Shown piece by piece: positions 2,311-57,170 of a stretch of DNA of 64,000 bases (position 1 is the stretch's first letter; the number at the start of each line of letters is the position of its first letter). Source of the stretch: Escherichia coli (GTDB taxonomy: Bacteria; Pseudomonadota; Gammaproteobacteria; Enterobacterales; Enterobacteriaceae). Under the pieces are notes generated by a model. It had not been told where the DNA came from. It searched no databases and saw only the letters and a program-made list of their open reading frames with translations. A program made the translations under genes and the position numbers. The DNA lies in the NCBI RefSeq assembly GCF_017348835.2, contig NZ_CP072315.1. The stretch is one strand, 5' to 3'.

Positions 2311-3519
2311 TTAAAGGGTTAGTGGTTCAATAGGCTGAAAAATGAAGGTACTGCTCATCTTTCGAATAACCGGGTGATCGCCTAACGCTTCAACCGGATC
2401 AATGTGTTCTAAGCCTGCAAAATTTACTGACGACATCTGGCTGCGACTGCATTTGCAGGACAGGATATACTCATCCTCCAGATAGCCGGTCCGCTTACTG
2501 ACCCGTTGCGTAAAGCCTGACACAATCACGTTGTCGAACGGTAGCGTATGTAAAACGATACCGACCAGGCGGAACAAGCAGCCATGGACGTGGCGGGCAT
2601 AGTTTTCGCGTACGGCTTTTTGCGTCATGGCTTTTTCCGTCAGCTCCGTGCCCCGGGCATTAACGCCGTAAATCTTATCAGGGAAATCTTCAATCTCAGC
2701 TAAATCAACATCCAGCAGGACTGCTGATAGCTCCGGCTTTACTTCAAATGCAACAAGCGTTTCACGCGGCCATTCAGTTTCTGCCAGCACACCCGCCAGG
2801 TATGATTCGAAAAACGCGGCGTCTGTCCGGAACTGCTGCCGGGCATCTGCCTGAGCCGTGGCGAGCCGTTTTTCATGTTCTTCAGCCTCAAACTTCCAGT
2901 TTGCATACTGTTCGGCCCAGGCCGTCCGTTGTTGCTGGTACCGGTGCTGTCGAAGGGTATTCTCACGCTCCACATCAATCAGCTCCTGCTGCCACCGGCG
3001 AAGATTTTCGGCGTGGCGCTCAGCTTTAGCTGATTCCGATTCAAACCATTTACCCAGAAAACTAATGCCTTCGCTCTCGGCAGGCTTTTCCGGCAATGCA
3101 AGATAGTCTGGCTTTTCTGGACGCACCGGTGCCGGAACCTGAAAAGGCGACGTTCTGTTATGCAGGTATACTGCTTCCAGCTCTGCCCAGCTGATGCCTG
3201 TTTTAGGATCCGGCGTCAGCTCGTGAATATTACGGATTGCGGTCACCGCTGACATGAGATCAGCGGCTTCCTCCTCAAGCGCCTGTCTGAGCCCCGGGTC
3301 GGTAGCCGTCCGGTTCCCACCTCCGGAACGCGCGGCCCGATCAAGCCGGGTACGGTAACTCAGCCCGGTACCGGGCAAGCCCAGATTGGCATAGGTCCCC
3401 CGGCTTCCAAAAGAAACGGAAGCACCTCTCGGCCCGACACTCAGGCTCGGTGCACCGTTACTCAGGTTGAGGCGAACACCAGGAATAATGTTGATCGACT
3501 TTCTGAATCTGAACCCCAT
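2311..3519 (-). CDS. Ter-associated protein with DUF4236-like N-terminus, function unknown
   Basis: 402-aa ORF co-directional and tightly packed with the module; glycine-rich N-terminal segment (GPRGASVSFGSRGTYANLGLPGTGLSYR). Confidence 0.55.
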   Translation of the reverse strand: MGFRFRKSINIIPGVRLNLSNGAPSLSVGPRGASVSFGSRGTYANLGLPGTGLSYRTRLDRAARSGGGNRTATDPGLRQALEEEAADLMSAVTAIRNIHELTPDPKTGISWAELEAVYLHNRTSPFQVPAPVRPEKPDYLALPEKPAESEGISFLGKWFESESAKAERHAENLRRWQQELIDVERENTLRQHRYQQQRTAWAEQYANWKFEAEEHEKRLATAQADARQQFRTDAAFFESYLAGVLAETEWPRETLVAFEVKPELSAVLLDVDLAEIEDFPDKIYGVNARGTELTEKAMTQKAVRENYARHVHGCLFRLVGIVLHTLPFDNVIVSGFTQRVSKRTGYLEDEYILSCKCSRSQMSSVNFAGLEHIDPVEALGDHPVIRKMSSTFIFQPIEPLTL

Positions 3520-3529
3520 TATGATTTCC

Positions 3530-4489
3530 TTAATGATGCTGGGTCACGGTAAGTAATCTGATTCCATCAGCGCTTTGCTCGTTCTGTAACCCATAAAAAC
3601 GAGCTCTGTCCAGAATGCCAGCCGCCCAGCGGCGATGTGTGGCGGGTTCACACATTGCTCCCTGCGACTTAAACACGGCCTGGGTAGAGTTCAGGATCCG
3701 CAGAGCGTCAGAATGCTCACCCTGAGTGACCATCAGCGCGTTTTGAATGACCTCTATCTGACCCGGGTGAATGGCCGTTTTCCCAACAAGCCCATGTGCC
3801 ATATCAAGAGCCAGCTCTCTGGCCATTACGGCATGATCGTCAATATGCTCACATACGGGCGCGGTCAGGGCAAAATCACGCGGGCCGAAGACCGAAACGA
3901 GCATTTTGATGACGTAGCCCATCGGGCTGTCATACAGCGTCAGGTCCCGGGGACGGCGAAGCGACACAACGTTCATAAGATCGTTGCCGCCGATTCGAAG
4001 CGCAATAATGCGGTCGTGGCAGGGATGTTCCACCAGACGGGTGGCCAGCTCCCGCATCTGAACCACGTCAAAGACGTCTTCTGTTTCCAGCGTTGGCATC
4101 ATGCACAGGTGAGTCCCGCCCATGATATCCCACCATTCAGCTAACGAACTGAGGGTAAATTTCGGCAACACAAACCCGTCGACAGCGGAAAGATCATAAT
4201 GCGCTTTTAACCATCTGCCCATTTCGGCATGCCGGGGGCGAATGAACACCAGAGGCCAGTCATTTTTACCCAGGCTATGCATGCTGTTACTGAGCTCGTG
4301 CAGCAGGTGCTCCAGATTTTTGAGGGCGACGGGGATGTCTGCTTCACTGACAGCATCCTCCAGGCAAATCACCAGAGAGCGCAAACCCGGGATTTTCCCG
4401 TGCAGGACGGCATCAGCAATATCTTCCCGTGTTGCAGGCATGTATAGCGTGGCTCCCAGATTCCAGGGAGAAAGACGATTTTTCATCAA
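3530..4489 (-). CDS. HpcH/HpaI aldolase / citrate-lyase beta-like (TIM-barrel) enzyme
   Basis: 319-aa ORF; start overlaps the upstream gene's stop (ATGA at 4486-4489), indicating translational coupling; fold assignment is from sequence similarity by eye. Confidence 0.6.
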   Translation of the reverse strand: MMKNRLSPWNLGATLYMPATREDIADAVLHGKIPGLRSLVICLEDAVSEADIPVALKNLEHLLHELSNSMHSLGKNDWPLVFIRPRHAEMGRWLKAHYDLSAVDGFVLPKFTLSSLAEWWDIMGGTHLCMMPTLETEDVFDVVQMRELATRLVEHPCHDRIIALRIGGNDLMNVVSLRRPRDLTLYDSPMGYVIKMLVSVFGPRDFALTAPVCEHIDDHAVMARELALDMAHGLVGKTAIHPGQIEVIQNALMVTQGEHSDALRILNSTQAVFKSQGAMCEPATHRRWAAGILDRARFYGLQNEQSADGIRLLTVTQHH

Positions 4490-13843: not shown

Positions 13844-15085
13844 GTGAATCTACAATCCGGACAAAACATACCGCTTCAGCAATCTGCGATCAGGCTGAAT
13901 CTTCAGTACCCTGCCAAATCCGGCTTTAAAGGCGAACCCGATACCTGCCTCTTCCTGCTTAATGCTCAGGGAAAGGTAACCGGCGATTCTGACTTTATCT
14001 TTTATAATAATCTGTCTTCTCCTGAAGGGGCAGTAAAGCTCGTTACCGGTTCTCAGCAGTCCAGCATTGAGATAGCACTGGATCGTGTTCCGGCGAACGT
14101 CAGTAAGATTGCGATCACCGTTGTCATTGATGGTGAAGATACTATCAGTGGGCTCAGTTTATTGAGCATTCAGGCTCCTGGTATCGCTGATTTTCAGGCT
14201 GAGACTCAGGGCCGCAGTGAGAAAGCAATCATCCTGGGTGAAGTATATCGGCACAATGGCGCCTGGAAGCTTCGTGCGCTCGGGCAGGGTTTCAACGGTG
14301 GTCTTGAGCCTCTGGCCATTAGCTTTGGCGTTGATGTCGCACAGCCAGCTCCGCAGCCAGCAAAGCCTGCTCGTATCAGTCTGGAAAAGAAACTTGAAAC
14401 CAGATCTCCGCGCCTCGTAAGCCTCGCTAAAAAAGCCTCGGTCAGTCTCACTAAAAATAAACTGGACACCCTTGAGGCAGCGGTTGCATTTGTACTTGAC
14501 GCATCCGGCTCAATGAGTGGCCAGTTCAGTAAGGGCAACGTTCAGTCTGTGCTGGACCGCATCGCCGTTCTTGCCGCCCAGTTCGACGACGACGGTGAAA
14601 TGGATGTCTGGGGATTTGGAGAGAAGCACAAGAAGTATCCAAACGTCACACTGGACAACCTGGACACATATATTCAGTCCATTCGCGGGTCTGGAAAGCG
14701 TTCAGCCTGGGAGAACCTGCCGGGACTTGGTGGGACAAACAATGAGCCCCCTGTGATGGAAGAAATTGTCGACTACTTTAAGGACTCGAAAATCCCGGTA
14801 TATGTTGTATTTATTACCGATGGCGGGATCAGCAAGACCCGGGCGATTAAAGATGCAATCCGGCGTTCTGCCAACTACCCCATCTTCTGGAAGTTTGTCG
14901 GCCTGGGTGGTTCAAGCTACGGTATCCTCAAAAATCTGGATGACTTTACTGACCGCCGGGTTGATAACACCCACTTCTTTGCCATGGATGATTTCGGTTC
15001 GATCAGCGATGAAAAGTTATATGATAATTTACTGGAAGAATTCAGACCGTGGATCGATGAAACAAAAAGGTTAGGCATCCTGTAA
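13844..15085 (+). CDS. terF: TerF-like protein (TerD domain fused to vWA domain)
   Basis: 413-aa ORF with GTG start after a CAGGAGAG ribosome-binding site; TerD-like N-half and vWA-like C-half (VLDASGSM). Confidence 0.75.
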
Positions 15086-15978: not shown

Positions 15979-16170
15979 TCATCGAGGCGCATAACCTTCT
16001 TCCCTTAACGCCTGTTGTAATTTATCAACTGCGCTTTTCATTACCCAGGCTTCTTCGTCACTCACAGCACAACCACGTAGATCGCTCCAGCTCAGACGTT
16101 TAACAAATTGAGCAAGGGCCATAGTTTCGTTCTCATCAAGCCGCAAACTCAGTGTCTCAATACCTTCCAC
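15979..16170 (-). CDS. Hypothetical small protein
   Basis: 63-aa ORF. Confidence 0.35.
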   Translation of the reverse strand: MEGIETLSLRLDENETMALAQFVKRLSWSDLRGCAVSDEEAWVMKSAVDKLQQALREEGYAPR

Positions 16171-16936: not shown

Positions 16937-17368
16937 GTGATAACACAAACAGGCCCCTACAGCGTAAGGATTGTGATGGACGATAAAGAGCAGTTTACGA
17001 ATCTTGTGGCAAAGCATGCCTCCGGACTCACCGAAGAGCAGCTGGCCGGGTACGATGCCTGTTCCCTGGATGGTGAATGCGTCACGCCTTCATACGAGGT
17101 TTTCCGGGGGTATCGTACCCGCCACACACTGGATGAATTTCTGGAGATGGCCATATCGCTGAATGCCATCCACCCGGATGAATATTTAACGGATATGCTG
17201 CTGAAGCCTCATGAGGTGATCGGCGCTCTGGCCGATGAAGGCGACCAGCTGAACAACGCCACCCCGGTTTATTTCTTTCCGGATACCGGCGTCTATGCAG
17301 CGGCCGTTAGTGAAACCCGGGTGCTCGATGCCTGGCTTTGCTGGCCATGCTACCCGGCGAACTGGTAA
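16937..17368 (+). CDS. Hypothetical protein
   Basis: 143-aa ORF. Confidence 0.4.
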   Translation: MITQTGPYSVRIVMDDKEQFTNLVAKHASGLTEEQLAGYDACSLDGECVTPSYEVFRGYRTRHTLDEFLEMAISLNAIHPDEYLTDMLLKPHEVIGALADEGDQLNNATPVYFFPDTGVYAAAVSETRVLDAWLCWPCYPANW

Positions 17369-17439
17369 CGCGGCCGTTGGAATTGCACCGGCCGGATACG
17401 AATTTAACCGATCCCGTGGCGGGAAGGCTATCAGAGTTG

Positions 17440-17685
17440 CATGTCCTCATCCCTCAAGCCCCCTGCCAGGCCCCAACGTGCTGTCAGGCTTCGCCTGATT
17501 CCCGATCTGCGCCGATACTTCAGCCGATAACTTTTTGTTTTCTTTTTATTTTCTTCCCATTTCCTCAAAAATCGCGGGCGGCGTGGACAGGGCACCATTG
17601 CCGCATGTGGGGTCTTAATAAGGGCAGGGTGGTCAGTTTTGCTCGATGCCATGGGTAGGCCCTCCCCTTCATGGGATGAGGACAT
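17440..17685. repeat. Pair of perfect 15-bp inverted repeats flanking a non-coding segment
   Basis: GCATGTCCTCATCCC at 17440-17454 and its reverse complement GGGATGAGGACATGC at 17671-17685. Confidence 0.6.
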
Positions 17686-17840
17686 GCAAGTAAGCTAACT
17701 ATCTGAAATGACGAAGGTTCATTTGGTGAATGTCGCTTCATATTAATGTTGTGTCACTTATGATCGTATGTAGCTGGTTGCAAAGAGGAGCGATGAGACA
17801 ATAAAGTTGTATCGCTAACAAGATTTATGCTGCCACATAG

Positions 17841-17940
17841 TAACAGCCTAAAAGTTGTACGCCCTATTTAACAGCTTTTAGGCTGTTAATTTGATATTAC
17901 AGCTTTTAGGGTGTATGTTTAGGAAACAGCCTGCAAGGTG
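17841..17940 (+). promoter_or_regulatory. Four iterated operator-like motifs upstream of hipB
   Basis: ACAGC(C/T)TNNAAG-like motif at about 17842, 17871, 17899 and 17926, partly palindromic. Confidence 0.45.
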
Positions 17941-17968
17941 TATCAGAGGAAACTACTGAGGCCAGCTT

Positions 17969-18265
17969 ATGATCAATAATGATTACCCGTTAAACACGCT
18001 CAACCAGCTGCGTCCCTTGCTCATTGGTTTTCGCAAGGCGAATGGCCTGACGCAAAAAGACCTGTCCGAAAGGTTAGGCGTCACTCAACAGACATACTCA
18101 CGTCTGGAAGCCAACCCTGCCAGTGCGAGCATTGAACGGCTATTCAAGGTGTTTTCCATCCTGGGCGTAAAAATCAGCTTCTCCTCGGCAACCACCTCTT
18201 CAGAGAGGAAGCAGACGGAAGAAATGCTTAAATCAAACTCACCTGCACGACAGGAGGATTGGTAA
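17969..18265 (+). CDS. hipB: HipB-like HTH (XRE-family) antitoxin
   Basis: 98-aa ORF with HTH segment (LTQKDLSERLGVTQQTYSRLE) directly upstream of the hipA-like gene. Confidence 0.75.
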   Translation: MINNDYPLNTLNQLRPLLIGFRKANGLTQKDLSERLGVTQQTYSRLEANPASASIERLFKVFSILGVKISFSSATTSSERKQTEEMLKSNSPARQEDW

Positions 18266-18269
18266 CGAT

Positions 18270-19595
18270 ATGAGCCGGAAACAGCAACGTCTGGTAATTT
18301 GGATGAACGGCATCAAAGTCGGGTACTGGGAAAAAAGCAAAGGGGTAGACAGCTTAGAATACCTTCCTGAATGGGTTGCTGACGAACAGGGAAGGCCGCT
18401 GTCATTGTCCCTTCCTTTTACTCCCGGGAACCAGGTCTGGCGTGGAAATGTGGTACGTGACTATTTTGATAATTTACTGCCGGACAGCGAAGGCATACGC
18501 AGACGTCTGGCAATGCGTTACAAGGCCGATAGCCTGGAGCCTTTTGATCTGCTGACGGAGCTGGGAAAAGACTGCGTGGGCGCGATACAGCTGCTTCATG
18601 ACGGAGATGAACCCACTGATTTATATTCCGTGAAGTATCACCCGCTTACTGAATCAGAAATTGCGGCAACTTTGCGTAATACCACGGAGACATTGCTACC
18701 GGGCAGGCCAGAAGATAACGACGACTTACGTTTATCTATTGCCGGTGCTCAGGAGAAAACAGCCCTACTGTGGCATGAAGATCGGTGGTGTATGCCGGAG
18801 GGTAATACACCAACGACGCATATATTCAAGCTACCGCTCGGACTTGTGGGGAACATGAAAGCCGACATGAGCTCGTCGGTTGAAAATGAATGGCTCTGCT
18901 CGGTACTTCTCGGCCAGTACGGGCTCCCCGTGGCAAGAACGCAGATTGCTCACTTTGAAGATCAGAAAGCGCTGGTGGTAGAACGTTTTGACCGAAAATG
19001 GTCAGGAGACGGACAATGGATCATTCGTTTACCCCAGGAGGATATGTGTCAGGCCCTGGGCGTTTCGCCATTACGAAAATATCAGGCGGACGGCGGGCCA
19101 GGTATATCGGAAATTATGGAGGTTCTGAGTAATTCAGACCGTGCTGAGCGTGACAAAGCGCAGTTTTTTATGACGCAGATAATTTTCTGGATGATGGCCG
19201 CAACAGATGGCCACGCTAAAAATTTCAGTATTTCTATTGGGCCACAGGGACGTTATCACCTTACACCAAACTATGATGTGTTGTCGGCATGGCCGGTGAT
19301 CGGTCATGGGAACAATCAGATATCCTGGCAGAAGTGCAAACTGGCGATGGCCGTACGTGGCAGTAGCAACTATTACCAGATATATCGAATACAACGACGC
19401 CACTGGATCAGGCATGGTGAGATAACCGGCCTGAGTAAACAGCAGACAGAGGCGATGATAGAGGAAATCATCGCCAGAACCCCGGGTGTCATTGAACGTG
19501 TTAGCGGGCTTCTTCCGGACCAGTTCCCCCAGCAGCTTGCGGAAAGTATTTTTGATGGAATGAGGCAGCAATGCAGGCGCCTGGCTGAGAAATGA
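18270..19595 (+). CDS. hipA: HipA-like Ser/Thr kinase toxin
   Basis: 441-aa ORF, 4 nt after the hipB stop; N-terminal HipA-like coupling region and kinase-like core. Confidence 0.75.
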   Translation: MSRKQQRLVIWMNGIKVGYWEKSKGVDSLEYLPEWVADEQGRPLSLSLPFTPGNQVWRGNVVRDYFDNLLPDSEGIRRRLAMRYKADSLEPFDLLTELGKDCVGAIQLLHDGDEPTDLYSVKYHPLTESEIAATLRNTTETLLPGRPEDNDDLRLSIAGAQEKTALLWHEDRWCMPEGNTPTTHIFKLPLGLVGNMKADMSSSVENEWLCSVLLGQYGLPVARTQIAHFEDQKALVVERFDRKWSGDGQWIIRLPQEDMCQALGVSPLRKYQADGGPGISEIMEVLSNSDRAERDKAQFFMTQIIFWMMAATDGHAKNFSISIGPQGRYHLTPNYDVLSAWPVIGHGNNQISWQKCKLAMAVRGSSNYYQIYRIQRRHWIRHGEITGLSKQQTEAMIEEIIARTPGVIERVSGLLPDQFPQQLAESIFDGMRQQCRRLAEK

Positions 19596-55739: not shown

Positions 55740-55955
55740 GTGCGCCCATGCCGCATTGCGAAGCAAAAGATAATCGGATAAAATGTAGCAATTCATATTC
55801 GTAAGCGTGGAGTAATCAGATGGGAAATTCCAAGTCAGCAGACAAGTAAGCCGCAACAACCAGTATTGTTGTTGCGGCGCTCTGTAAGGCTAGTCTCATC
55901 TGATTGCTGACGAGCAGACGTCGCCCGGTATTCCTTAATCGAGGGTTGATTCGTC

Positions 55956-57170
55956 ATGACCACCACACGCCCCGCGTGGGCCTATACGCTGCCGGCAGCA
56001 CTGCTGCTGATGGCTCCTTTCGACATCCTCGCTTCACTGGCGATGGATATTTATCTCCCTGTCGTTCCAGCGATGCCCGGCATCCTGAACACGACGCCCG
56101 CTATGATCCAACTCACGTTGAGCCTCTATATGGTGATGCTCGGCGTGGGCCAGGTGATTTTTGGTCCGCTCTCAGACAGAATCGGGCGACGGCCAATTCT
56201 ACTTGCGGGCGCAACGGCTTTCGTCATTGCGTCTCTGGGAGCAGCTTGGTCTTCAACTGCACCGGCCTTTGTCGCTTTCCGTCTACTTCAAGCAGTGGGC
56301 GCGTCGGCCATGCTGGTGGCGACGTTCGCGACGGTTCGCGACGTTTATGCCAACCGTCCTGAGGGTGTCGTCATCTACGGCCTTTTCAGTTCGATGCTGG
56401 CGTTCGTGCCTGCGCTCGGCCCTATCGCCGGAACATTGATCGGCGAGTTCTTGGGATGGCAGGCGATATTCATTACTTTGGCTATACTGGCGATGCTCGC
56501 ACTCCTAAATGCGGGTTTCAGGTGGCACGAAACCCGCCCTCTGGATCAAGTCAAGACGCGCCGATCTGTCTTGCCGATCTTCGCGAGTCCGGCTTTTTGG
56601 GTTTACACTGTCGGCTTTAGCGCCGGTATGGGCACCTACTTCGTCTTCTTCTCGACGGCTCCCCGTGTGCTCATAGGCCAAGCGGAATATTCCGAGATCG
56701 GATTCAGCTTTGCCTTCGCCACTGTCGCGCTTGTAATGATCGTGACAACCCGTTTCGCGAAGTCCTTTGTCGCCAGATGGGGCATCGCAGGATGCGTGGC
56801 GCGTGGGATGGCGTTGCTTGTTTGCGGAGCGGTCCTGTTGGGGATCGGCGAACTTTACGGCTCGCCGTCATTCCTCACCTTCATCCTACCGATGTGGGTT
56901 GTCGCGGTCGGTATTGTCTTCACGGTGTCCGTTACCGCGAACGGCGCTTTGGCAGAGTTCGACGACATCGCGGGATCAGCGGTCGCGTTCTACTTCTGCG
57001 TTCAAAGCCTGATAGTCAGCATTGTCGGGACATTGGCGGTGGCACTTTTAAACGGTGACACAGCGTGGCCCGTGATCTGTTACGCCACGGCGATGGCGGT
57101 ACTGGTTTCGTTGGGGCTGGTGCTCCTTCGGCTCCGTGGGGCTGCCACCGAGAAGTCGCCAGTCGTCTAA
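55956..57170 (+). CDS. floR: Florfenicol/chloramphenicol MFS exporter FloR
   Basis: 404 aa MTTTRPAWAYTLPAALLLMAPFDILASLAMDIYLPVV…. Confidence 0.95.
   Translation: MTTTRPAWAYTLPAALLLMAPFDILASLAMDIYLPVVPAMPGILNTTPAMIQLTLSLYMVMLGVGQVIFGPLSDRIGRRPILLAGATAFVIASLGAAWSSTAPAFVAFRLLQAVGASAMLVATFATVRDVYANRPEGVVIYGLFSSMLAFVPALGPIAGTLIGEFLGWQAIFITLAILAMLALLNAGFRWHETRPLDQVKTRRSVLPIFASPAFWVYTVGFSAGMGTYFVFFSTAPRVLIGQAEYSEIGFSFAFATVALVMIVTTRFAKSFVARWGIAGCVARGMALLVCGAVLLGIGELYGSPSFLTFILPMWVVAVGIVFTVSVTANGALAEFDDIAGSAVAFYFCVQSLIVSIVGTLAVALLNGDTAWPVICYATAMAVLVSLGLVLLRLRGAATEKSPVV

What the first reader, a model, noticed from the sequence alone, without database searches (positions are those of the whole stretch)
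17440..17685. Perfect 15-bp inverted repeats bracketing a 216-bp non-coding segment
GCATGTCCTCATCCC at 17440-17454 and its exact reverse complement at 17671-17685 flank a segment with no convincing ORF. This could form a long stem, or be a MITE-like or recombination-site remnant.
Basis: seen in the sequence. Interest (0 to 1): 0.3.

Follow-up and report, generated by a model that had tools for sequence, protein, structure and literature searches.

The report
Conserved hairpin-bounded non-coding element of IncHI plasmids
The inverted repeat is real and bounds a roughly 250-base non-coding element that IncHI resistance plasmids have kept almost unchanged, one copy each; it is not a jumping element or a flip-switch, and its function is still unknown.

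Summary
The repeat is real but is 17 nt, not 15: TTGCATGTCCTCATCCC at 17437-17453 and its exact complement at 17673-17689, with 219 nt between. The window is an IncHI2 plasmid.

The 253-nt unit is single-copy and found only in about 1,450 IncHI-type plasmids (IncHI2, IncHI1, IncHI1B-like) and related metagenomic contigs. In 9 of the 11 lineages examined it lies 67-69 nt after the stop codon of one small unknown gene. It sits at the edge of a variable defence-gene region.

The arms, a small hairpin (CAGGC-TTC-GCCTG) and a 21-nt T-tract are invariant. The sequence around them has diverged to near-random identity. The deepest lineage carries a compensated arm change (C:G to A:T). The interior is non-coding.

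Not supported:
- MITE: one copy, same position everywhere, no target duplication.
- Invertible switch: 0 of 1,167 plasmids flipped.
- Frpo-type single-strand promoter.
- Any Rfam family.
- Canonical Ter, Xer or attC sites.

The interior is no more stably folded than shuffled sequence, and covariation is limited to one pair.

My best guess (about 0.3) is a cis-acting RNA element, co-transcribed with the upstream gene and closed by the long-range arm stem. Rival readings are paired DNA protein-binding sites or a single-stranded DNA conjugation signal.

It is unannotated. Interest is moderate.

The parts
16937..17368 (+). Upstream partner gene (ORF143; conserved 130-aa core from the ATG at 16976). 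A hypothetical protein that precedes the element in every lineage carrying it.
17369..17436 (+). 68-nt spacer between the stop codon and the left arm. Its length is fixed (67-69 nt) in 9 of 11 lineages, although its sequence is only 43-47% identical between spacer types.
   Evidence: In L021 and L040, a remnant of the ORF's 3' end plus this spacer still precedes the arm, despite an inserted gene.
17437..17453 (+). Left arm, TTGCATGTCCTCATCCC.
   Evidence: Invariant in 9 distinct sequences. In the deep lineages it reads CTGCATGTCATCATCCC (L041) and ATGCATGTCATCATCCC (L016).
17461..17480 (+). 5' strand of a candidate long-range helix (P2), CCCTGCCAGGCCCCAACGTG.
   Evidence: RNAalifold. Pair counts: 12 of 16 pairs never vary, and one pair covaries (window 17474:17577 = C-G, U.G, A-U, U-A). 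The inner part is not kept column-for-column in L041.
17483..17499 (+). Invariant small hairpin / 15-bp palindrome, G-TCAGGC-TTC-GCCTGA-T.
   Evidence: The only changes are in the loop (TTC to TCC) or improve the closing pair (G.U to A-U) in L021. It is intact in L041 and L016.
17527..17566 (+). Pyrimidine / T-rich tract, ATAACTTTTTGTTTTCTTTTTATTTTCTTCCCATTTCCTC. The 21-nt core TTTGTTTTCTTTTTATTTTCT is almost invariant. The minus strand carries an A-tract plus an IHF-like core at 17528-17540.
   Evidence: Alignments. The IHF-like match has 1 mismatch, is conserved in 6 of 7 lineages, and is expected by chance about 0.2 times per element.
17573..17592 (+). 3' strand of candidate helix P2, CGCGGGCGGCGTGGACAGGG.
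17600..17672 (+). Variable right interior. Identity between lineages is 45-60%, but length is conserved.
   Evidence: Arm-to-arm length is 252-256 nt in all lineages. Candidate helices here pair in different registers in different lineages, so the evidence is inconclusive.
17673..17689 (+). Right arm, GGGATGAGGACATGCAA. The well-conserved sequence ends at its outer end.
   Evidence: BLAST alignments to other lineages stop at query position 310 = 17689. L041 has GGGATGATGACATGCAA, the compensating change. The first base is T in pPSP, L020, L021 and L040.
17690..17817 (+). Lineage-specific right flank (pESC15ND24-1 type). At about 17818-17820 it joins the hipB upstream region, where R478-type plasmids carry about 3.2 kb more (protease plus Bunzi genes).
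   Evidence: BLAST map; for the genes.

Best explanation
The 253-nt unit (17437-17689) is a conserved, single-copy, cis-acting non-coding element of the IncHI plasmid backbone.

I propose that it works as RNA. It would be transcribed on the + strand, as the 3' untranslated or intercistronic continuation of the small upstream gene. No promoter or terminator consensus lies within the element or the 68-nt spacer.

In the transcript, the two arms would pair into a perfect 16-17-bp long-range stem. That stem closes a domain holding a GC-rich helix, an invariant small hairpin, and an exposed, invariant U-rich / CCUC-containing tract.

A long perfect duplex at the boundary between a backbone gene and variable cargo would be expected to serve as a processing or stability determinant. 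It could be a double-strand-specific RNase target or a 3' exonuclease barrier. The displayed U-rich tract could serve as a binding platform for a protein or another RNA.

Shown here: the anatomy, the conservation, the non-coding nature, the fixed orientation and distance to the gene, and retention of arm complementarity through a double change.

Inferred: transcription, folding in vivo, and every functional consequence.
For: - Fixed orientation in all lineages, and a fixed 67-69-nt distance to the stop codon of the same gene family in 9 of 11 lineages, despite an unalignable spacer sequence.
- Same strand as the flanking genes. No sigma-70 promoter or intrinsic terminator match lies in the spacer or element.
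- The interior is non-coding.
- Arm complementarity survived a double substitution in L041 (C:G to A:T). By my arithmetic, about 1 in 51 (2%) that the single right-arm change hits the partner position with the complementary base by chance.
- One P2 pair shows four compatible states, including U.G intermediates that pair only on the + strand.
- The small hairpin changes only in its loop, or towards better pairing.
- The + strand interior folds 5-15 kcal/mol more stably than the - strand in 4 of 5 lineages.
- Arm-to-arm length is fixed at 252-256 nt although the right interior is only 45-60% identical.
Against: - The interior alone is no more stable than dinucleotide shuffles (z from -1.2 to +1.3). 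The unit's z of -3.5 comes from the arms.
- Covariation amounts to one pair plus one arm pair. Consensus folding does not favour either strand.
- The arms and T-tract are invariant at sequence level, not just in pairing. That goes beyond what a stem needs and fits protein recognition of DNA at least as well.
- A third arm-like copy in IncHI1 types lies in direct orientation.
- No Rfam match, no expression data, and no intrinsic terminator to define an RNA end.
- ORF130 homologues exist without the element (L010-L013, L018).
Confidence: 0.3

Rival explanations
1. Double-stranded DNA element. The two arms are the same 17-bp protein recognition sequence placed in inverted orientation 236 bp apart. 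The A/T-tract and IHF-like site lie between them. The bound protein would be plasmid-encoded: the very divergent Tus homologue (a miniature replication-fork trap like the inverted Ter pairs of R6K or R1), or another backbone DNA-binding protein that loops or insulates the DNA.
For: - Sequence-level invariance of the arms, as islands of 100% identity in random-level flanks.
- Symmetric co-variation of both arms in the lineage whose backbone proteins are most divergent.
- Fixed spacing between the arms.
- A third copy of the motif occurs only nearby, and nowhere else on whole R27 or R478.
- IncHI plasmids encode a Tus homologue, yet have no canonical Ter sites above chance.
- The R27 cumulative GC-skew maximum (148.5-150 kb) lies 2-4 kb from the element.
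- An IHF-like core is conserved.
Against: - No arm-like motif lies upstream of tus, unlike E. coli TerB.
- R478 skew does not pinpoint the element: there is a plateau at 55-112 kb and the maximum is at 159 kb.
- The arms match the Ter consensus only weakly by eye, and there is no GTTGTAAC-like core in the element.
- The 150-nt conserved interior and the fixed distance to the ORF are not explained.
- The IHF match is expected by chance in about 1 of 5 elements.
- The skew coincidence is post hoc (about 4% by chance).
Confidence: 0.2
2. Single-stranded DNA signal used during conjugation. It would act as a priming site (ssi), or as a hairpin recognised on the transferred strand in the recipient, functionally like the Frpo/ssi elements of F and ColIb-P9 or the paired ssiA/ssiB of RSF1010.
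For: - The perfect arms give a strong DNA hairpin: z -3.5 on the + strand and -2.7 on the - strand.
- These plasmids are very large, conjugative MOBH plasmids that must prime complementary-strand synthesis repeatedly.
- They encode a toprim-domain protein.
- The flanking genes point towards oriT on the side opposite the relaxase operon. By analogy with F, this would make the transferred strand their template.
Against: - No -35/-10 boxes are reconstituted in any helix (and inspection).
- It is not a long, near-continuous hairpin. Delta G is about -50 kcal/mol, against the < -75 threshold used for ssDNA promoters (PMC12672017).
- No sequence similarity to Frpo-bearing F or I plasmids: BLAST hits only IncHI plasmids.
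- It lies 44 kb (R27) to about 100 kb (R478) from the inferred oriT.
- The wobble evidence favours the strand that would not be transferred, under the F analogy.
Confidence: 0.12
3. Site-specific recombination site. It would be a resolution or cassette-exchange site for the conserved backbone tyrosine recombinase, and it marks the edge of the variable defence-gene region.
For: - A tyrosine recombinase is syntenic 4-8 kb upstream in IncHI1-type, pPSP-type and L041 backbones.
- Flank types re-assort against interior types, and pRHBSTW-00464_2 has its crossover at the left arm.
- In IncHI1 types, the right arm and a 15/16-identical direct copy bracket a small gene.
- Several different right flanks begin directly after the arm.
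Against: - 0 of 1,167 plasmids have the interior inverted, as dsDNA recombination between inverted sites would produce.
- The L014 crossover lies inside the interior, as expected for plain homologous recombination.
- No Xer or attC core consensus is conserved.
- The recombinase has no recognisable arm-binding domain. In IncHI2 it is about 29 kb away.
- No further arm copies lie between the other cargo genes.
Confidence: 0.1
4. Ancient insertion of a miniature transposable element (TIR-bounded) that is now immobile and has no function of its own.
For: - Terminal inverted repeats of typical length and an overall size of about 250 bp.
- Homology to other lineages ends at an arm.
Against: - Single copy per plasmid, and no copies elsewhere in 5,426 E. 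coli genomes except with IncHI DNA.
- No target-site duplication.
- The arms and left interior are far better conserved than the adjacent protein-coding gene and flanks, and one arm change is compensated. Neutral decay would not give this.
Confidence: 0.06

Closest known systems
Intercistronic or 3'-UTR stem-loop elements of bacterial operons (RNase III processing hairpins such as lambda sib and the T7 early sites; REP/ERIC-type transcribed repeats acting as mRNA stabilisers)
   Same: Located between co-oriented genes with no promoter or terminator of its own. A long perfect duplex is formed by inverted repeats. Orientation relative to the upstream gene is fixed.
   Different: The stem closes a 219-nt interior rather than a short loop. 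It is single-copy and plasmid-family-specific, not a dispersed repeat. Its sequence is invariant, not merely its pairing. Neither transcription nor processing has been shown.
Inverted Ter-site pairs bound by Tus (R6K, R1/R100 plasmid termini)
   Same: Two identical asymmetric sites in inverted orientation, a few hundred bp or less apart, on a plasmid that encodes a Tus-family protein. In R27 the element is near the GC-skew switch.
   Different: The arm sequence does not match the Ter consensus. No site lies next to tus. A conserved 150-nt interior has no counterpart. Binding is untested.
Frpo/ssi single-stranded DNA promoters and priming signals of conjugative plasmids (F, ColIb-P9, pESBL)
   Same: A non-coding unit of about 250-330 nt with strong hairpin potential on a conjugative plasmid, next to defence or anti-defence-type cargo.
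   Different: No reconstituted -35/-10 boxes and no sequence homology. Hairpin energy is much weaker. It lies tens of kb from oriT.
MITEs / miniature inverted-repeat elements and invertons (invertible promoters)
   Same: Perfect short inverted repeats bracket about 220 bp of non-coding DNA.
   Different: No target duplication, one copy, fixed location, never inverted in 1,167 assemblies, and no internal promoter.

Membership tests
MITE / non-autonomous IS derivative | Terminal inverted repeats | tested here: met
   17-bp perfect inverted repeats.
MITE / non-autonomous IS derivative | Flanking target-site duplication | tested here: not met
   The flanks differ in every lineage, for example ...ATCAGAG|arm...arm|GTAAGCT and ...ATCACAA|...|TTCACTA.
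MITE / non-autonomous IS derivative | Multiple copies at unrelated sites (evidence of mobility) | tested here: not met
   One place per record in 1,451 plasmids. No paralogue on whole R27, whole R478 or the window. Position is syntenic in all lineages.
MITE / non-autonomous IS derivative | Termini matching those of a known IS family | not testable with these tools
   No IS-terminus library was available. No match from memory.
Inverton (invertible promoter) | Both orientations of the segment present in populations or assemblies | tested here: not met
   An artificially flipped query found 0 of 1,167 plasmids with 80% or more coverage in one place.
Inverton (invertible promoter) | Promoter inside the invertible segment | tested here: not met
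   No sigma-70-like site within 17437-17689 on either strand. No sigma-54 match.
Frpo/ssi-type ssDNA promoter | Long near-continuous hairpin reconstituting -35 and -10 boxes | tested here: not met
   The DNA fold is a multibranch structure at about -50 kcal/mol, and no hexamer pair lies in any helix. The published criterion is < -75 kcal/mol (PMC12672017).
Frpo/ssi-type ssDNA promoter | Sequence similarity to known Frpo/ssi | tested here: not met
   Sensitive blastn against 72,556 plasmids returns only IncHI-type records.
Frpo/ssi-type ssDNA promoter | Location in the leading region next to oriT, on the transferred strand | tested here: inconclusive
   The element is 44 kb (R27) and about 100 kb (R478) from the mobI-proximal oriT region. 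Transfer polarity of IncHI was not found in the literature held.
Any curated RNA family (Rfam 15) | Covariance-model match | tested here: not met
   Nothing in the 7-kb scan overlaps the element (its single hit, E=0.25, lies at 14362-14492). Only chance-level eukaryotic snoRNA/miRNA hits appear in the 401-nt scan.
Tus-Ter replication fork trap | Ter consensus core (GTTGTAAC-type) | tested here: not met
   No match with up to 1 mismatch in the element in 7 lineages. Plasmid-wide Ter-like hits are at chance level.
Tus-Ter replication fork trap | Position at the replication terminus | tested here: inconclusive
   The R27 skew maximum lies 2-4 kb away. R478 is uninformative.
Tus-Ter replication fork trap | Binding and polar fork arrest by the cognate Tus | not testable with these tools
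   The IncHI Tus homologue is too divergent (E=6e-5 to 1ECR) to infer its specificity.
Integron attC / Xer (dif, cer) recombination sites | Conserved core sequences (GTTRRRY/RYYYAAC; XerC and XerD half-sites) | tested here: not met
   No conserved occurrence across lineages.
Retron msr-msd | Reverse transcriptase gene adjacent to an inverted-repeat-bounded non-coding RNA | tested here: not met
   No RT appears in the annotated neighbourhood of any lineage.
hok/sok-type type I toxin mRNA (5'-3' fold-back) | Conserved small hydrophobic toxin ORF inside the unit | tested here: not met
   No conserved ORF and no coding signature. No Rfam hok/sok hit.

The most novel reading that the evidence does not exclude
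The arms are the recognition sites of a plasmid-encoded DNA-binding protein, most interestingly the orphan, highly divergent Tus homologue of IncHI plasmids. The element would then be a self-contained replication-fork trap or insulator with a new Ter sequence. It would sit at the edge of the defence-gene hotspot, near the skew-inferred terminus.
Probability: 0.1. Interest if true: 0.65.

Novelty: new variant of a known kind. Interest (0 to 1): 0.4.

Why it matters
IncHI1 and IncHI2 plasmids are major carriers of multidrug, colistin and heavy-metal resistance in Salmonella, E. coli and Enterobacter. This element is among their most conserved stretches, better conserved than the protein-coding gene next to it. 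Yet no record annotates it and no library recognises it.

If it is a cis-acting site needed for gene expression, replication termination, transfer or stability, it would be a new functional landmark of the IncH backbone. It would also be a specific marker or target for these plasmids.

It also marks the exact edge of a region where defence cargo (Bunzi, HipBA, HNH nucleases) is exchanged between lineages.

Tried and rejected
- **Coding.** The 84-aa minus-strand ORF and the 106-aa plus-strand ORF were rejected by frame conservation and substitution pattern.
- **Inverton.** Rejected by the flipped-query search.
- **MITE.** Rejected on copy number, synteny and absent target duplication.
- **oriT.** The relaxase and mobI lie 44-100 kb away.
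- **Promoter or terminator.** None found in the element. The TTGGGA-18-TATAAT over the right arm in L041 is not conserved elsewhere.
- **Shine-Dalgarno / start-codon sequestration by the arms.** Dropped, because L041 changes GAGGA to GATGA.
- **Rfam.** Nothing.
- **Known DNA-site consensi** (Xer, DnaA, LexA, sigma-54, attC, PriA hexamer, Ter): none conserved.
- **Arm-like site near tus.** None.
- **Thermodynamic structure of the interior.** Not above shuffles.
- **Strand choice by consensus folding.** Undecided.
- **P3 helix next to the right arm.** It pairs in different registers in different lineages, so I did not count it as covariation.
- **Two genome-contig scans.** Nothing found.
- **Literature searches** for IncHI non-coding elements, transfer polarity and plasmid Tus/Ter: nothing relevant.
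- **Structure of the upstream protein.** No informative relative. The afdb50 library was unavailable.
- **G-quadruplex and attP-like readings.** Considered by eye only and dropped, as not conserved or not supported by the recombinase's domain make-up.
- **Site-specific crossover at the arms.** Not needed once the L014 crossover was located inside the interior.

Full report
**Observation**

The inverted repeat exists, but it is 17 nt long. TTGCATGTCCTCATCCC lies at 17437-17453 and its exact reverse complement at 17673-17689, with 219 nt between them.

The motif occurs nowhere else in the window, even with three mismatches allowed. By my arithmetic, a non-overlapping 17-nt perfect inverted repeat within 300 nt is expected about once per thousand such windows.

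**Where it comes from**

The window is an IncHI2 plasmid. It is 100% identical over this stretch to pSTM6-275 and to many other 200-290-kb plasmids of Escherichia, Salmonella, Enterobacter and Klebsiella.

Sensitive BLAST finds the element in 1,451 plasmid records, always as one place per record. Even with the most divergent copy as query, the same 1,451 records come back. In complete E. coli genomes, 397 of 411 places are on plasmids, and RefSeq annotates nothing under the match.

Two scans of species-representative genomes found nothing. A metagenome scan built on interior motifs found 20 contigs, all with both arms. A profile search finds no paralogue on whole R27, whole R478 or the window.

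**Anatomy and conservation**

In 9 of the 11 lineages examined, the element starts 67-69 nt after the stop codon of the same small gene (ORF143 here, about 130 aa elsewhere), on the same strand. These include IncHI2 types, IncHI1 R27 type, L014, pPSP-a3e type and the deep metagenomic L041/L016 type. In the L021/L040 type, another gene has been inserted, but a remnant of the ORF's 3' end plus the same spacer still precedes the left arm.

Pairwise comparisons show islands of conservation. For the window against pPSP-a3e:

| Segment | Identity |
|---|---|
| ORF 3' end | 64% |
| Spacer | 44% |
| Left arm | 100% |
| Left interior | 85% |
| Right interior | 53% |
| Right arm | 94-100% |
| Downstream | about 37% |

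Three features are invariant or nearly so, even in the L041/L016 lineage, which is only 62-69% identical overall:
- the arms;
- a 15-bp palindrome / hairpin, TCAGGC-TTC-GCCTGA;
- a 21-nt T-tract, TTTGTTTTCTTTTTATTTTCT.

Arm-to-arm length is 252-256 nt everywhere.

In L041 the left arm reads CTGCATGTCATCATCCC and the right arm GGGATGATGACATGCAA. The internal C-to-A change is matched by G-to-T at the partner position, while the outermost pair is lost. By my arithmetic, the single right-arm change falls at the partner position with the complementary base by chance about 2% of the time.

**Not coding**

No frame on either strand shows third-position bias or a synonymous excess. The frame that happens to stay open is at or next to the lowest synonymous count in the five between-lineage comparisons. 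The 84-aa minus-strand ORF is not conserved.

**Mobile-element and switch readings**

There is no target duplication, only one copy, and a fixed location, so this is not an active or recent MITE.

I queried the plasmid collection with a version in which the interior was artificially inverted. None of the 1,167 matching plasmids covers it in one piece. A frequently switching inverton is therefore excluded. No internal promoter is found either.

**Structure**

As single-stranded DNA or RNA, the whole unit folds better than shuffles (z = -3.5 on the + strand, -2.7 on the - strand). This is due to the arms. The interior alone has z between -1.2 and +1.3 on either strand in five lineages.

RNAalifold proposes a GC-rich long-range helix (17461-17480 with 17573-17592) that encloses the small hairpin and the T-tract. 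An explicit pair count gives the following:
- The arm helix never varies, so it is uninformative on pairing.
- The long-range helix has one pair with four compatible states: C-G, U.G, A-U and U-A.
- The shuffle and slide controls are only marginally exceeded.

The inner part of that helix is not kept column-for-column in L041. Consensus folding does not prefer a strand. The U.G intermediates and the lower + strand energies lean towards the sense strand.

Selection for a folded strand is therefore suggested but not demonstrated.

**Known families**

- Rfam gives nothing.
- The element shares no sequence with Frpo/ssi-bearing plasmids. It does not form the long hairpin with reconstituted -35/-10 boxes that defines those promoters (criteria in PMC11541004 and PMC12672017).
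- It lies 44 kb (R27) or about 100 kb (R478) from the mobI/MobH relaxase region where oriT is expected.
- Xer, attC, DnaA, LexA, sigma-54 and Ter consensi are not conserved in it. An IHF-like core next to the A-tract is conserved, but it is a chance-level match.

**DNA-level leads**

IncHI plasmids encode a Tus-family protein. It is very remote from E. coli Tus (E = 6e-5). Neither R27 nor R478 has canonical Ter sites above chance.

R27's cumulative GC skew has its minimum near the RepHI1 replicons (about 70 kb) and its maximum at 148.5-150 kb, which is 2-4 kb from the element. In R478 large accessory insertions blur the skew, and the element sits on a plateau. No arm-like motif lies next to tus.

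A pair of inverted recognition sites acting as a fork trap is thus a live reading, but only a circumstantial one.

A conserved tyrosine recombinase lies 4-8 kb upstream in most lineages. It has no arm-binding domain and belongs to no specific family.

**Mosaicism**

Left-flank, interior and right-flank types re-assort. pRHBSTW-00464_2 switches parent at the left arm. IncHI2 interiors occur with two unrelated right flanks that begin directly after the arm.

However, L014 switches from pPSP-like to R27-like inside the interior, around position 76. This is what ordinary homologous recombination within conserved sequence would give. Site-specific exchange at the arms is not required.

In IncHI1-type lineages a third, slightly degenerate copy of the right arm (RATGAGGTYATGYAA) lies 340-375 nt further on, in direct orientation. 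It brackets a 67-76-aa gene, and the motif occurs nowhere else on R27 or R478.

**Context**

The DNA to the right of the element is variable cargo:
- In R478-type IncHI2 plasmids: a trypsin-like protease and a Bunzi defence system (BnzB, E = 6.5e-53), then hipBA.
- In R27: HNH nucleases.
- In L041: an unrelated gene.

The window lineage has lost about 3.2 kb here, so the element is followed almost directly by hipBA.

The upstream protein has no family assignment. Its confident predicted fold has no informative relative.

**Verdict**

The finding is real and more interesting than a chance palindrome. It is an unannotated, strongly constrained, IncHI-specific non-coding element bounded by a perfect inverted repeat.

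The MITE, remnant and inverton readings fail. Function cannot be fixed with these tools.

I rank the readings as follows:
1. A co-transcribed RNA element closed by the arm stem (about 0.3).
2. A paired DNA protein-binding site, possibly Ter-like (about 0.2).
3. A single-stranded DNA conjugation signal (about 0.12).
4. A recombination site (about 0.1).
5. A functionless relic (about 0.06).

The main unexplained point is why the arms and the T-tract are fixed at the level of sequence, rather than merely of pairing.

Noticed in passing
window 17690-17820; L004 4648-7397: R478-type IncHI2 plasmids carry a trypsin-like protease plus Bunzi anti-phage genes (BnzA-like, BnzB E=6.5e-53) between the element and hipBA. 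The window lineage has a deletion of about 3.2 kb that joins a pESC15ND24-1-type right flank to the hipB upstream region at about 17818-17820.
   Followed up: yes
L003 4619-4634; L002 4636-4650; L008 4609-4623; L014 4076-4090: A third, slightly degenerate copy of the right arm (RATGAGGTYATGYAA) lies 340-375 nt downstream, in direct orientation, in all IncHI1-type lineages. It brackets a 67-76-aa gene. The motif occurs nowhere else on whole R27 or R478.
   Followed up: partly
R27 162022-162981 (L024 13022-13981, minus strand); R478 55875-56855: IncHI plasmids encode a very divergent Tus-family protein (E=6e-5 to E. coli Tus) but have no canonical Ter sites above chance. Its target is unknown. 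The R27 cumulative GC skew peaks at 148.5-150 kb.
   Followed up: partly
L021 896-1292; L040 (reverse strand): In this lineage a 72-aa gene is inserted after the ORF130 allele. It is followed by a remnant of a second ORF130 3' end, then the usual 68-nt spacer and the element. L021's contig ends exactly at the right arm.
   Followed up: partly
[not shown]
   Followed up: partly
window 17836-17942: Nested imperfect palindromes (ACAGCYTWWAAG-type) overlap a promoter-like site just upstream of hipB (17969-18265) and hipA (18270-19595). They are presumably HipB operators.
   Followed up: no
window 15979-16170 (minus strand): A small ORF matching DUF7706 (E=1.1e-25) lies among three small minus-strand genes between the ter operon and ORF143.
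   Followed up: no
L010-L013, L018 (about 3394-3900): ORF130 homologues at about 53% identity are followed by an unrelated 89-aa gene and no element. The gene and the element are therefore separable.
   Followed up: partly
L041 13160-13200: In the deepest lineage, a near-consensus promoter (TTGGGA-18-TATAAT) overlaps the right arm. It is not conserved in other lineages.
   Followed up: no
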